Shown here one piece after another: positions 50,252 to 62,601 of a stretch of 64,000 bases of DNA. Position 1 is the stretch's first letter; each line of letters begins with the position of its first letter. Both the position numbers and the translations under genes were made by a program. This stretch comes from an uncultured Verrucomicrobiae bacterium (GTDB lineage: Bacteria > Verrucomicrobiota > Verrucomicrobiia > Chthoniobacterales > JAFAMB01): the NCBI GenBank assembly GCA_963813025.1, contig CAWEXO010000013.1:32001-96000 (forward strand), read 5' to 3'. Below the pieces are notes generated by a model that was not told the DNA's origin, ran no database searches, and worked only from the letters and a program-made list of their open reading frames with translations.

Positions 50252-50376
50252 CGGTAGGGCGAGAATTCATCTGAGCCTTCGGCGAAGACTCGTTCGAGCC
50301 GCGCGCTGCGGCAGGTCACGCTGAAGACGGCTCAAACAAGTTCTCGCTAAGGCTCGAATAAATTTTCGCCCTACCG
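50252..50376. repeat. REP-like family C inverted pair (50252-50301 / 50328-50376)
   Basis: cggctcaaacaagttctcgctaaggctcgaataaattttcgccctaccg and its degenerate reverse complement. Confidence 0.85.
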
Positions 50377-60227: not shown

Positions 60228-60365
60228 GAGACCTAGTAGCATAAGCGCGACGAAGGACAACGAGACACTCGGATATCAGCTGTCTCTCGGATTTTGCGAA
60301 GTCTGGAGCGCACGCATCGAGTGATCGGTGAGACAAGAATTGAAAGCCGTCCCACAACATTCTTC

Positions 60366-60657
60366 GCCCTGTGCCGGTAGGGCGAAAATTTATTCGAGCT
60401 CTTGGCGAGAACTTGTTTGAGCCGGACGCTGGAGTTGCCACATCCAAGGCGGCTTCTCCTTCGCTAAGGGGATCGGGCGCATTCCACGACATGCAGTGAA
60501 ATGGCGGAATCTTCGTGGCAGAATCTGGATAATGAACGATGTTGGAAAACAATGTCGTTTCTGAGCCTTGGGCAGAGACTTGTTCGATCTTTCTGGAACA
60601 TTGCTGACCCAACGCCCGGCTCAAACAAGTTCTCGCTAAGGCTCGAATGAATTTTCG
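60366..60657. repeat. REP-like family C inverted pair; right arm cut by IS110 and resumed at 62355-62371
   Basis: Left arm 60366-60425 gccctgtgccggtagggcgaaaatttattcgagc...ttgtttgagccgg; right arm 60616-60657 ends attttcg and continues gccctaccggcacagg after the IS. Confidence 0.9.
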
Positions 60658-60796
60658 TATAGCAAGTCCGTATAGCAAGTCCGGAGTTATTCAGCAAGCT
60701 GTGGTCGGAGGCCCTACCGGTCGGAGCTCCAGCTTGTGAATAACTCCGCCCGGAGAAAAGAAAGCTTTGGAAAAAAGAAAGGGTTTTCTTTGCCAA

Positions 60797-60994
60797 GGGC
60801 AGTCGGGCAAAATCCCGCGCTGCCCACGCGAAGAAGGACGCGCCGGCTGGCTACGAATAGGATTTTCGGGTCCGCGAGATCTTTAGGGCAGAGTTTCGAG
60901 CCAGCCGGTCGCGCTTTGATTCGTCACAACGAATACTCTAGTTGAGGTCGAGCACTTCACACTTCGACGACTTAACTATACGGATTTCGGACGG
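60797..60994 (+). ncRNA. Putative bridge RNA of the IS110 (5' stem-loop, target-binding loop, donor-binding loop); ends approximate
   Basis: Stem ccggctggct/agccagccgg encloses attttcg (target left) and tagggcag (reverse complement of the right junction); second loop holds atact and ctatacgg (donor). Confidence 0.75.
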
Positions 60995-61048
60995 CCAAAG
61001 CCAAGCGGCTTTTTTCGCGCTGGGTAAAACCAGAAAAAAGGAGCAAGC

Positions 61049-62323
61049 ATGAACCGATCAAATCCGTTTCCGGTCCCAGATCCCCATTATATGGTCAGCG
61101 TGGGAATCGATTGGGCTGATAAAGAACACGCTGTCTGTCAACGCTCTGGTCCGGAGGGAGGATGCCGGACATTCCAGCTGGGCGCCGATCCCGTTTCGGT
61201 TCGGACCTGGCTCGAAGAGCTCAAAAGCTTGGCTGGTCCGCAGGGGCGGGTGGCCATTGGTTTTGAACAAAATCGGGGAGCACTCTTTGAAATGCTCCGC
61301 ACCCAGGGAGACTGGATCGACCTCTATCCGCTCAATCCTTTGAGTTTAAGCGAATACCGCAAGGTCTTCTTTACTAGTGGCGCCAAGGATGACCCTCGCG
61401 ACAGCCAATTGATCGAAGAGCTCGTTGATCACCATCGGGATCGGCTCCGGCTTTATCAACCCCCGGAGCCGGTAGTGCGGGAACTGGATTTGCTCGGTCA
61501 GCACCGACGCAAAGCCGTCGAGGCCTCCGTGGTGTGCGAAAACCAACTCACCAGCTTACTCAAAGTCTACTATCCGCTGGCCCTCGAGCTCCTCGATGAT
61601 TTGGGCACCACTCTGGCGCTGCATTTTTTGAAACGCTGGCCGACCCTGCAGAGTTTAAAAAAAGCCAAGCCCCAGACCCTGCGCTCTTTTTTTTATCAGC
61701 ACCACAGCCGCAGCCAGAGCTTGATCGAGGAGCGCTTGGAAAAGATTGCTCGGGCCCAAACCGTCACCGAGGATCGTTCTCTGCTGGAGCCCTCCGTGCT
61801 GAGTTGCAAGTGTTTGGTCAGTCAATTGTTGCCGCTGCGAGATTCCATCAAGGCTTTTGACAAAGCCATCCACACTCTGTTTGCCAAACATCCCGATCGG
61901 CACATTTTTGAAAGTCTGCCCGGAGCCGGCCCGCAATTAGCCCCGCGCTTGTTGGTGGCTTTTGGCTCCAATCGGCAGGCTTTTGCCCAAGCCCTGGAGG
62001 TACAGAAAAAAAGCGGAATCGCTCCGGTCCAAGTGCGCAGCGGCCAAACCAAAAGCGTCCAGCGGCGGCGCTTTCGCTCCAAATTCCTGTGCCAGAGCTT
62101 CCACGAATTCGCGGCTCATTCCATTCCTTATTCCCAATGGGCCAAGCTCTATTATCAAGAGCAAATGGCCCGCGGTAAGTCCCACCACACTGCCGTGCGC
62201 GCCTTGGCCTTTAAATGGATCCGCGTCATCTTCCGGCTCTGGCAGGACCGCACCCCTTATGACGAAGAGCGCTACCTCCAAGTCCTCAAAAAACGCCACT
62301 CACCAATCGGTGAAAAACTTTAA
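61049..62323 (+). CDS. IS110-family recombinase/transposase
   Basis: VGIDWADKEH, GFEQ, KDDPRDS (DEDD); SLPGAG; GIAPV..RSG serine; SD aaggag. Confidence 0.93.
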   Translation: MNRSNPFPVPDPHYMVSVGIDWADKEHAVCQRSGPEGGCRTFQLGADPVSVRTWLEELKSLAGPQGRVAIGFEQNRGALFEMLRTQGDWIDLYPLNPLSLSEYRKVFFTSGAKDDPRDSQLIEELVDHHRDRLRLYQPPEPVVRELDLLGQHRRKAVEASVVCENQLTSLLKVYYPLALELLDDLGTTLALHFLKRWPTLQSLKKAKPQTLRSFFYQHHSRSQSLIEERLEKIARAQTVTEDRSLLEPSVLSCKCLVSQLLPLRDSIKAFDKAIHTLFAKHPDRHIFESLPGAGPQLAPRLLVAFGSNRQAFAQALEVQKKSGIAPVQVRSGQTKSVQRRRFRSKFLCQSFHEFAAHSIPYSQWAKLYYQEQMARGKSHHTAVRALAFKWIRVIFRLWQDRTPYDEERYLQVLKKRHSPIGEKL

Positions 62324-62601
62324 CTTTTTCCCTTGCCAGACCTGCTCAGATACTGCCCTACCGGCACAGGGGCTTGCTCATCGTCGGAGCATCGGCATTC
62401 TCACCGGTTGTCTTTGAACAAGCTACAAGATCTCATCCTTAGGGGAAGACGTTTCGCTTTCGGGTGCAGATGGTGACGATGCAAAGCATTATGATGAGAA
62501 AAATGTTGCCAGAGCCGATACCCGAACCAGGCTCACTGATCGTGCCAAGATTGCGGATCTGGGCGTTCACGTTACACTAAACTTTTCCAAGGTGTTTTCT
62601 T

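What the first reader, a model, noticed from the sequence alone, without database searches (positions are those of the whole stretch)
60657..62355. IS110 inserted in a REP-like repeat, with a readable bridge RNA programmed for that repeat
Seen: the repeat arm ...attttcg|ccctaccggcac is split exactly by the element. In the 390-bp non-coding left end, a 10-bp stem (60843-60852/60899-60908) encloses attttcg (60862-60868, identical to target-left) and tagggc (60884-60889, reverse complement of target-right). A second loop, also framed by cgaa...ttcg, contains atact (60933-60937, donor-left) and ctatac (60976-60981, reverse complement of donor-right). Known: IS110 elements such as IS621 use a bispecific bridge RNA, and IS621 targets E. 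coli REPs. Inference: this is a complete, possibly uncharacterised RNA-guided recombinase aimed at a lineage-specific repeat. Empty exact targets exist at 50362-50373 and on the minus strand at 60378-60389.
Basis: partly seen in the sequence, partly recalled or inferred. Interest (0 to 1): 0.88.

Follow-up and report, generated by a model that had tools for sequence, protein, structure and literature searches.

The report
IS110 element with bridge RNA
This is a complete, apparently active jumping gene of the IS110 family that carries its own guide ("bridge") RNA aimed at an abundant palindromic repeat of its soil-bacterium host; it is a new example of a system already described in 2024.

Summary
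Every motif sits at the stated coordinates, and the element (60658-62355) splits a repeat at AATTTTCG|CCCTACC.

- **Copies:** All 10 full copies and one fragment in this genome sit at that same base.
- **Gene:** The ORF is an IS110-family recombinase.
- **RNA:** A covariance model built from six homologous left ends finds one structured RNA just upstream of the gene in 63 of 67 sources searched. Stem covariation is strong.
- **Guides:** Across homologues the loop sequences track their own insertion sites: 0 of 2000 permutations reach the observed match for either target guide. Within the close clade, three different left targets carry three matching left guides.

- The left donor guide 'atact' lies in a motif conserved family-wide and does not covary. 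The homologous guide is CTCTAGTTG (60936-60944).
- Target and donor share only one core base (CG versus TG).

The extra bases 3' of both right guides behave as the published handshake guides.

Verdict: a new member of a known kind, of modest interest. The scan had already reached the same reading on other copies in this genome. Expression and recombination remain untested.

The parts
60650..60657 (+). Left half of the target (AATTTT) plus target core CG, in one arm of a dispersed palindromic repeat
   Evidence: all 11 left junctions in the genome end in ttttcg. The uninterrupted 15-mer AATTTTCGCCCTACC occurs 127 times in the genome.
60658..60670 (+). Extra tandem copy of the 13-bp left-end tip TATAGCAAGTCCG. 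It starts with the -10-like hexamer TATAGC.
   Evidence: present in 3 of 11 left ends (the window copy, L008 and the fragment L011); found in both SNP subtypes; absent from 12 other distinct left ends of the clade.
60671..60683 (+). Left-end tip proper: the right donor half TATAG..., which doubles as the -10-like hexamer
   Evidence: the left end begins TATAG (or TATGG) in the homologues whose tip was found; hexamer counts are TATAGT 31, TATAGG 10, TATAGC 9.
60684..60747 (+). Long 5' hairpin (GGAGTTATTCAGCAAGCTG...CAGCTTGTGAATAACTCC), probably the 5' stem-loop of the transcript
   Evidence: fold; arms conserved in the clade and the Verrucomicrobial homologues (not in every homologue), with a variable loop.
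60837..61015 (+). Bridge RNA core: two stem-loops, each with a large internal loop
   Evidence: Covariance model R1 gives 157.3 bits, the only hit in the window; 95.6% of cells paired, and 25 of 31 pairs show compensatory change.
60842..60909 (+). Target-binding stem-loop: outer stem 60842-52/60899-909, inner stem CGAA 60854-57 / TTCG 60895-98
   Evidence: helix 2: 12 of 15 pairs change on both sides.
60860..60868 (+). Left target guide GGATTTTCG. It has the same sense as the target GAATTTTCG (8 of 9) and includes the core CG.
   Evidence: The strand rule is from Durrant 2024, PMC11208160 (passages).
60884..60891 (+). Right target guide plus handshake base: TAGGGCAG, the reverse complement of CTGCCCTA at the right junction (62353-62360)
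   Evidence: Handshake guides are described in PMC11208158 (passages).
60913..61001 (+). Donor-binding stem-loop: basal stem 60913-19/60995-61001, inner stem CGAA 60930-33 / TTCG 60986-89
   Evidence: helix 3: 7 of 7 pairs change on both sides; helix 4: 3 of 4.
60936..60944 (+). Left donor guide in the family register: CTC[T]AGTTG against the right end CTCAGATA. One U is bulged and there is one mismatch in the seven bases CTCAGAT.
   Evidence: L118 and L119 match perfectly (CTC-AGTT). L094 and L104 show the same bulge.
60976..60984 (+). Right donor guide plus core plus handshake bases: CTATACGGA. It pairs with the left junction TTCGTATAG (7 Watson-Crick pairs CGTATAG, then one G-T wobble and one A-T pair).
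   Evidence: The guide covaries with the left-end tip in L046 (TATGG with CCATA).
61049..62323 (+). Recombinase gene, 424 aa: a DEDD (RuvC-like) domain plus a Tnp domain
   Evidence: PF01548 at 1.3e-20 and PF02371 at 1.1e-8. NF033542 scores 148.4 bits against a cut-off of 140; the frame is intact in all 10 copies.
62333..62338 (+). -35-like hexamer TTGCCA in the right end, 17 nt from the element's last base. It would face TATAGC only in a circular junction.
   Evidence: coordinates; 41 of 55 homologues carry a TTG hexamer at exactly 17 nt, and the other 14 at 16 or 18; no sigma-70-like site on the + strand of the integrated element.
62345..62355 (+). Right-end tip CTCAGATAC (left donor half) plus donor core TG
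62356..62367 (+). Right half of the target (CCCTACCGGCAC), the 5' arm of the repeat's small hairpin

Best explanation
Window 60658-62355 is one of ten near-identical copies of an IS110-family (IS110-group) insertion sequence. It encodes a 424-aa DEDD/Tnp recombinase and, in its left end, a bridge RNA.

**Target loop (60858-60894).** The 5' strand (GGATTTTCG) has the same sense as the left target plus core. The 3' strand (TAGGGCAG) is the reverse complement of the right target, the core, and the last base of the element's right end.

**Donor loop (60934-60985).** The 3' strand (CTATACGGA) is complementary to the left-end tip, the core, and the last bases of the left target. The 5' strand (CTCTAGTTG) imperfectly matches the right end.

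**Inferred cycle, by analogy with IS621.**
- Excision joins the right end to the left end in a circle.
- That junction assembles a promoter (TTGCCA, 17 nt, TATAGC), which drives the RNA and the recombinase.
- The RNA bridges the circle junction and the site AATTTTCG|CCCTACC, and the recombinase exchanges strands there.

**What is shown.** The anatomy, the site specificity, stem covariation, and guide-to-site covariation.

**What is inferred.** Transcription, the circle, catalysis, and the strand order.
For: - **Gene.** Pfam PF01548 and PF02371. NCBIfam 'IS110 family RNA-guided transposase' above its cut-off. Distant but significant similarity to the solved bridge recombinases ISCro4 (2e-6) and IS621 (8.7e-6).
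- **Site specificity.** 10 of 10 full copies and 1 fragment sit at ttttcg|...|(g/a)ccctacc. The exact 15-mer target occurs 127 times in the genome.
- **RNA.** Model R1 hits once per locus upstream of the gene in 63 of 67 sources. 95.6% of cells are paired against 77% in shuffles and 24-49% in slid controls, and 25 of 31 pairs show compensatory change.
- **Guides follow sites** (longest common run, own site versus other loci's sites):
  - Left target guide: 6.83 versus 3.66, n=48, 0 of 2000 permutations.
  - Right target guide: 4.96 versus 2.96, n=53, 0 of 2000.
- **Close clade** (58-72% aa). One shared right target with three left-target classes, each with a matching guide: AATTTTCG, GGTTTTCG and GGAGnnTCG.
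- **Handshake pattern.** It matches the description in PMC11208158 and is seen.
- **Recent activity.** 7 of the 10 copies encode an identical protein, and the frame is intact in all 10.
Against: - No expression data: no RNA run is listed, and only metagenome contigs could be laid.
- No circle junction was found in the assembly or in the contigs.
- No Rfam family matches, so the RNA's homology to the IS621 bridge RNA rests on architecture rather than on a sequence or structure model.
- The left donor guide matches its right end poorly in this element. The longest common run is 4, against a family median of 8.
- The -10-like hexamer TATAGC lacks the final T.
- Target and donor share one core base, not two.
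- The alignment used for pair counts was fitted to the model's own structure, which inflates the share of paired cells.
Confidence: 0.9

Rival explanations
1. The element is bridge-RNA guided as above, but the left donor guide is the first reader's 'atact' (60933-37), pairing with the last bases of the right end (ATAC plus core T), rather than the homologous CTCTAGTTG.
For: An exact 5-nt match lies directly next to the core. The family-register guide matches this element's right end poorly (longest common run 4). TACT is shared by guide and right end in every clade member whose right end was found.
Against: AATACTC is conserved in homologues whose right-end tips are quite different (ATGTCT, ACCTCT, GGTGCT). 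In the clade the fifth base of the right end varies (T, C or A) while the guide stays A. The first A of 'atact' belongs to the covarying CGAA/TTCG stem (helix 4). In L118 and L119 the family register gives a perfect 7-nt match.
Confidence: 0.15
2. The protein recognises the repeat's sequence or hairpin directly, and the structured left end is only a 5' UTR or regulatory leader. The loop matches would be by-products.
For: The target lies at the foot of a small hairpin in a palindromic repeat. A preprint abstract reports that a target stem-loop adds specificity for ISPpu10 (10.64898/2026.03.19.712850, outline and abstract only).
Against: Loop sequences follow the insertion site across 48-53 distinct homologues with unrelated targets. 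They also follow it within the close clade, where only the left target changes. The two guide strands have the opposite senses expected for pairing with the two DNA strands.
Confidence: 0.04
3. The matches are leftovers of target DNA captured in the left end by imprecise recombination, or are chance.
For: The left end also holds a 10-nt copy of the right target (GCCCTACCGG, 60711-60720), which looks accidental.
Against: The composite motif appears in 25 of 200,000 shuffles. The matches occupy fixed loop positions of a covarying structure in 63 loci. The right-side guides are reverse complements, not copies.
Confidence: 0.02

Closest known systems
IS621 of Escherichia coli and its bridge RNA (Durrant et al. 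2024, PMC11208160; Hiraizumi et al. 2024, PMC11208158; passages read)
   Same: - DEDD plus Tnp recombinase.
- Guide RNA in the left end, upstream of the gene, with two internal loops.
- Left guides share the sense of the top strand, and right guides are reverse complements.
- The core is covered by the guides.
- Handshake bases lie 3' of both right guides.
- The -35 box is in the right end and the -10 box in the left end.
- The target is a repeated palindromic element of the host.
   Different: - The protein is 424 aa against 328 in the solved chain. It is only distantly similar (phmmer 8.7e-6 over residues 247-410).
- The left end is 378-391 nt, with a long extra 5' hairpin.
- The first core base differs between target (C) and donor (T), where IS621 has CT in both.
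- The left donor guide carries a bulge and stops short of the core.
- The host is a soil Verrucomicrobiota bacterium, going by the record titles of relatives.
ISCro4 transposase (PDB 9t56)
   Same: It is the best solved-structure match by sequence (2e-6 over residues 224-412).
   Different: Only the C-terminal domain aligns. Nothing about its RNA was examined here.
ISPpu9 / ISPpu10 of Pseudomonas putida (PMC12288879, search listing only; 10.64898/2026.03.19.712850, abstract)
   Same: IS110-family elements whose copies all sit in one repeated intergenic palindromic sequence.
   Different: No sequence comparison was made here. Whether the target hairpin contributes to recognition in this element is untested.
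IS1111 group / seekRNA elements (recalled; named in the abstract of PMC13604230, search listing)
   Same: The same recombinase superfamily and RNA-guided site choice.
   Different: In that group the guide RNA lies downstream of the gene (recalled). Here only 32 nt follow the stop codon (62324-62355), and the structured RNA is upstream.

Membership tests
IS110 family (IS110 group) bridge-RNA elements | Recombinase with an N-terminal DEDD (RuvC-like) domain and a C-terminal Tnp domain | tested here: met
   PF01548 at 1.3e-20 (residues 18-176) and PF02371 at 1.1e-8 (285-370). NF033542 scores 148.4 bits against a cut-off of 140.
IS110 family (IS110 group) bridge-RNA elements | Catalytic D, E, D, D and serine residues | tested here: inconclusive
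   D21, E73, D115, D118 and S331 are invariant in the six-protein alignment A1 and have the D..E..DxxD..S spacing. Their equivalence to IS621 D11/E60/D102/D105/S241 (named in PMC11208158) was not shown by any alignment, because the N-terminal domain did not align.
IS110 family (IS110 group) bridge-RNA elements | No terminal inverted repeats and no target duplication beyond a short shared core | tested here: met
   The ends are TATAGCAAG... and ...CTCAGATACTG. The flanks rebuild the uninterrupted repeat with one ambiguous base.
IS110 family (IS110 group) bridge-RNA elements | Structured non-coding RNA with two internal loops in the left end, upstream of the gene | tested here: met
   five helices, 25 of 31 pairs with compensatory change, and a hit in 63 of 67 sources.
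IS110 family (IS110 group) bridge-RNA elements | Target-loop strands match the left target (same sense) and the right target (reverse complement), and covary with the insertion site | tested here: met
   0 of 2000 permutations for each; three left-target classes in the clade.
IS110 family (IS110 group) bridge-RNA elements | Donor-loop strands match the element's own ends | tested here: inconclusive
   The right donor guide is clear: CTATAC matches GTATAG, and it covaries in L046. The left donor guide covaries family-wide (7.65 versus 6.42, 0 of 2000). In this element, though, it matches only with one bulge and one mismatch over CTCAGAT.
IS110 family (IS110 group) bridge-RNA elements | Handshake bases 3' of the right guides that pair with the non-cognate DNA | tested here: met
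   The target loop's TAGGGCAG pairs with the donor's C and T. The donor loop's CTATACGGA pairs with the target's TTC (one wobble). See; the definition is from PMC11208158.
IS621-type model (a feature of the studied element, not of the family definition) | Identical core dinucleotide in target and donor | tested here: not met
   The target core is CG and the donor core TG, so only G is shared. Most homologues have CT in both: 45 left junctions and 44 right ends. L034 (CA/TA) and L045 (TT/AT) also differ at the first base.
IS110 family (IS110 group) bridge-RNA elements | Promoter split between the right end (-35) and the left end (-10) | tested here: inconclusive
   The geometry fits: TTGCCA, 17 nt, TATAGC, with the TTG hexamer at 17 nt in 41 of 55 homologues. 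No intact + strand promoter-like site exists in the integrated copy. The -10 is weak and there are no transcription data.
IS110 family (IS110 group) bridge-RNA elements | Circular intermediate and RNA-dependent recombination | not testable with these tools
   No circle junction was found in the assembly. Only contigs were available, with no joints.
IS1111 group (seekRNA) | Guide RNA downstream of the recombinase gene (recalled) | tested here: not met
   Only 32 nt lie between the stop codon and the element's end. The covariance-model hit is upstream.

The most novel reading that the evidence does not exclude
In this clade the first 'core' base is not shared between target (C) and donor (T). 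The right target guide is written for the donor's base and the right donor guide for the target's base, so both right guides fit the products better than the substrates.

All ten copies keep C at the left junction and T at the right junction. That is what top-strand-determined joining predicts, as proposed in recent preprint abstracts on top-strand insertion and copy-out. If cleavage follows IS621's staggered cuts either side of the core, unbiased resolution of the resulting mismatch would give a mix.

If this reading is right, the family is a natural demonstration that one shared base is enough, and that core asymmetry biases the direction of the reaction. The recurrent 13-bp left-end duplication could then be a by-product of the donor loop's handshake bases pairing with the element's own TCCG.
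Probability: 0.3. Interest if true: 0.5.

Novelty: new member of a known kind. Interest (0 to 1): 0.3.

Why it matters
This is a clean natural example of bridge-RNA programming, useful to people mining bridge recombinases for four reasons:
- It is a divergent, longer recombinase (424 aa) from soil Verrucomicrobiota, with a well-defined roughly 180-nt RNA core.
- It has ten recent copies and more than a hundred empty targets in the same genome.
- Its relatives form a natural reprogramming series: one right target with three left targets.
- Donor and target share a single core base, which bears on how much core identity the reaction needs.

It does not change the known picture of IS110 biology.

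Tried and rejected
- **Rfam 15.** The search at E up to 1 over 60300-62600 gave only four sub-threshold hits to unrelated families. No described family matches the RNA.
- **Sequencing runs.** No RNA holder is listed; four DNA or unknown runs are kept as contigs. I laid two of them. This showed a roughly 97%-alike variant without the 13-bp duplication, and repeat copies that run straight on into CCCTACC. There were no joints and no circle junction.
- **Genome searches for two hypothetical short junctions.** Neither the right-end-to-left-end circle junction nor an excision footprint that leaves the 13-mer behind was found.
- **Right-target 'mimic'.** I considered that the 10-nt copy of the right target in the loop of the 5' hairpin (60711-60720) might sequester the right target guide. 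I rejected this. Eight of the ten bases come from the conserved hairpin arms, and the motif is absent from all 12 other distinct left ends of the clade.
- **Right junction of copy L005 (A instead of G).** I looked at whether it fixes the crossover point. The A variant of the repeat is rare (3 versus 143 copies), so a point mutation after insertion cannot be excluded.
- **Handshake bases alone.** A test of the left-flank bases at -6 to -3 (just upstream of the core) against the donor loop showed no signal: 2.09 versus 2.08, with 1083 of 2000 permutations reaching the observed value. The family-wide evidence for handshake pairing therefore rests on the longer junction matches and on the three lineages with unequal cores.
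- **Rows dropped before the counts.**
  - L050 and L054, because the right end was mis-called.
  - L083, L062, L036 and L091, because the left flank was mis-called or too short.
  - Loci whose flank ran off the contig.
  - Duplicate guide/flank pairs, which were counted once.
Full report
**Observation.**
- The 10-bp stem 60843-52/60899-908 is perfect and extends to 60842-52/60899-909, with an inner CGAA/TTCG pair of strands.
- attttcg (60862-68) equals the last seven bases of the left flank.
- tagggc (60884-89) is the reverse complement of gcccta at the right junction.
- ctatac (60976-81) is the reverse complement of gtatag at the left junction.
- atact (60933-37) equals the last bases of the right end.

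The composite target-loop motif appears in 25 of 200,000 shuffles of the left end, and once in the whole window.

**What the element is.**
- The only long ORF (61049-62323, 424 aa) carries PF01548 and PF02371.
- It passes NCBI's model 'IS110 family RNA-guided transposase' at 148.4 bits against a cut-off of 140.
- Among solved structures it is only distantly like ISCro4 (2e-6) and IS621 (8.7e-6), and only in the C-terminal domain.
- The assembly (4.42 Mb, 16 contigs) holds 10 full copies and one 228-bp left-end fragment.
- All copies are flanked by ...ttttcg on the left. On the right, 9 copies have gccctacc and one has accctacc.
- The copies fall into two SNP subtypes. Seven encode the identical protein, and the frame is open in all ten.

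**The target.**
AATTTTCGCCCTACC occurs 127 times exactly, and 277 times with up to two mismatches. It lies near the outer end of a conserved unit of about 55 nt (…CCGGCTCAAACAAGTTCTCGCTAAGGCTCGAATAAATTTTCGCCCTACCGGCACAGG…). That unit often occurs as inverted pairs about 90-170 bp apart (most about 110), and it contains a small hairpin, GCCCT-8 nt-AGGGC.

Distribution of the 13-mer among the 26 genomes searched:
- 143 copies in this genome.
- 118 and 103 copies in two other genera of the same family.
- 6 copies in the one genome of the same genus.
- None in the 10 genomes from other families of the order.

The repeat is therefore restricted to the family rather than to the species.

**The RNA.**
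Homologous elements came from three searches:
- relatives' genomes
- 78 loci in genome contigs (Verrucomicrobiota, Acidobacteriota, Planctomycetota, Gemmatimonadota and others, by record title)
- 80 metagenome loci

Six left ends aligned well. They gave a consensus of two stem-loops with large internal loops.

The covariance model built from them hits once per locus, directly upstream of the gene, in 63 of the 67 sources I gave it. It hits once in the window, at 60837-61015.

On the 57 distinct rows:
- 95.6% of cells are paired, against 77% in shuffles and 24-49% when partners are slid.
- 25 of 31 pairs show compensatory change.

That alignment is fitted to the model, which favours pairing. 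The number of compensatory pairs and pair types also exceeds all 500 shuffles.

**Do the loops follow the insertion sites?**
For each locus I took four things:
- the left flank before the conserved TATAG tip
- the right flank after the conserved CTCAG+6 tip
- the four loop strands, anchored on the CGAA/TTCG stems
- the longest common run between each guide and its own site, compared with the sites of other loci

| Guide | Own site | Other loci's sites | n | Permutations reaching observed |
|---|---|---|---|---|
| Left target guide | 6.83 | 3.66 | 48 | 0 of 2000 |
| Right target guide | 4.96 | 2.96 | 53 | 0 of 2000 |
| Left donor guide | 7.65 | 6.42 | 48 | 0 of 2000 |

Senses are as published for IS621: left guides have the sense of the top strand, right guides are its complement, and the core is included (PMC11208160, passages).

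In the close clade (58-72% aa) the right target stays CCCTACC. The left target comes in three classes, each with its matching guide:
- AATTTTCG here
- GGTTTTCG
- GGAG(G/C)(C/T)TCG

One locus (L121) does not fit: its guide matches 5 of 9 flank bases, and its left-end tip looks like another subtype. It may be chimeric.

**Handshake bases and the core.**
The bases 3' of both right guides match the product junctions.
- TAGGGCAG pairs with CTGCCCTA: the donor's C and T, then G, then the right target.
- CTATACGGA pairs with TTCGTATAG: the target's TTC (with one G-T wobble), then G, then the left-end tip.

This is the handshake-guide arrangement described for IS621 (PMC11208158, passages).

Most homologues have CT before TATAG and CT at the right-end tip: 45 left junctions and 44 right ends. 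This clade has CG (target) against TG (donor), so only G is shared. L034 (CA/TA) and L045 (TT/AT) show the same first-base inequality. In all three lineages the right target guide fits the donor's version and the right donor guide fits the target's.

All ten copies here keep C on the left and T on the right. This agrees with joining determined by the top strand, which IS621 cleaves 3' of the core. It also agrees with preprint abstracts proposing top-strand insertion or single-strand copy-out (10.1101/2025.10.25.684509 and 10.64898/2026.08.31.748434, abstracts only). This is inference from sequence, not a demonstration.

**Correction of the left donor guide.**
'atact' lies in AATACTC, which is conserved in homologues with unrelated right-end tips. 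Its first A belongs to the covarying CGAA stem.

In the family, the guide is CTCAG plus three variable bases that covary with the right end:
- GTG with GTG
- ACC with ACC
- ATG with ATG

Several members have one bulged base after CTC.

Here the homologous strand is CTC[T]AGTTG against CTCAGATA. In L118 and L119 the same guide meets CTCAGTTA, a perfect CTC-AGTT match. The base that would need to covary with 'atact' is T, C or A in the clade, while the guide stays A.

**Promoter.**
- TTGCCA (62333-38) lies 17 nt from the element's last base, and the left end starts TATAGC.
- In homologues the TTG hexamer is at 17 nt in 41 of 55, and at 16 or 18 nt in the other 14.
- The homologues' left ends start TATAGT, TATAGG or TATAGC.
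- The integrated copy has no sigma-70-like site on the + strand.

This fits the split promoter reported for IS621 (PMC11208158) but was not tested here.

**What remains open.**
- Expression, the circle and recombination are all untested.
- No RNA runs were available.
- Contigs showed no joints.
- Supplements of the cited papers were not read. They may already list this clade among predicted bridge RNAs.

**Comparison and verdict.**
The element works like IS621 and meets the family's definition on every feature I could test. It differs in these respects:
- a larger and divergent protein
- a longer left end with a conserved 5' hairpin
- a bulged left donor guide
- a single shared core base

Earlier notes of this scan on other copies in the same genome reached the same reading, including the one-base core.

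I file it as a new member of a known kind. Interest is 0.3.

Noticed in passing
window 60658-60683; also L008 and L011: A 13-bp tandem duplication of the left-end tip (TATAGCAAGTCCG twice) occurs in 3 of 11 left ends. It is found in both SNP subtypes of the element, yet in none of 12 other distinct left ends of the clade. The internal junction TCCGTATAG is a perfect 9-nt complement of the donor loop's 3' strand CUAUACGGA, a better match than the true left junction. It may arise recurrently, for example by insertion into a resident copy's own left end followed by collapse of the tandem. No excision footprint was found.
   Followed up: partly
window 60711-60720: The loop of the conserved 5' hairpin contains GCCCTACCGG, identical to the right target, flanked by GGTCGGAG twice. 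The motif is absent from 12 other distinct clade left ends (0 of 12). Eight of the ten bases belong to the conserved arms, so it is probably a coincidence.
   Followed up: yes
window 60363-60440 and 60600-60657; genome-wide: The target belongs to a dispersed palindromic repeat that often occurs as inverted pairs about 110 bp apart. The exact 15-mer occurs 127 times here. The repeat is equally abundant in two other genera of the family but nearly absent from the one genome of the same genus (6 copies). Its own origin (miniature transposon or REP/BIME-like element) was not examined.
   Followed up: partly
L005 (G000:C4), right junction: One copy has A instead of G as the ambiguous core base at the right junction, while its left junction keeps G. 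The A variant of the repeat is rare (3 copies against 143). It could mark the crossover position or be a later mutation.
   Followed up: partly
L011 (G000:C1:207767-207997): A solo left-end fragment of 228 bp ends inside the target-binding loop (after ...GGGTCCGCGAGA). It keeps the left junction and the 13-bp duplication. The cause of the truncation is unknown.
   Followed up: no
L006 (G000:C16), right end: One copy has a 1-nt deletion in the conserved CTCAG of the right end (CTC-GATACTG). That stretch is the part the left donor guide should read, so this copy may be immobile.
   Followed up: no
G000: C3:83266-84420, C13:18614-19798, C11:72379-73281, C13:453126-453863 and others: The genome holds several further IS110-family genes, 26-38% identical to this one. 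Some have internal stop codons, so more than one lineage of such elements lives here.
   Followed up: no
L121 (metagenome contig): This clade member's left flank (GAGCCTCG) does not fit its own left target guide (AGGTTTTCG). It would fit the guide of another subtype, and its left-end tip resembles that subtype. It could be a recombinant element or an off-target insertion.
   Followed up: no
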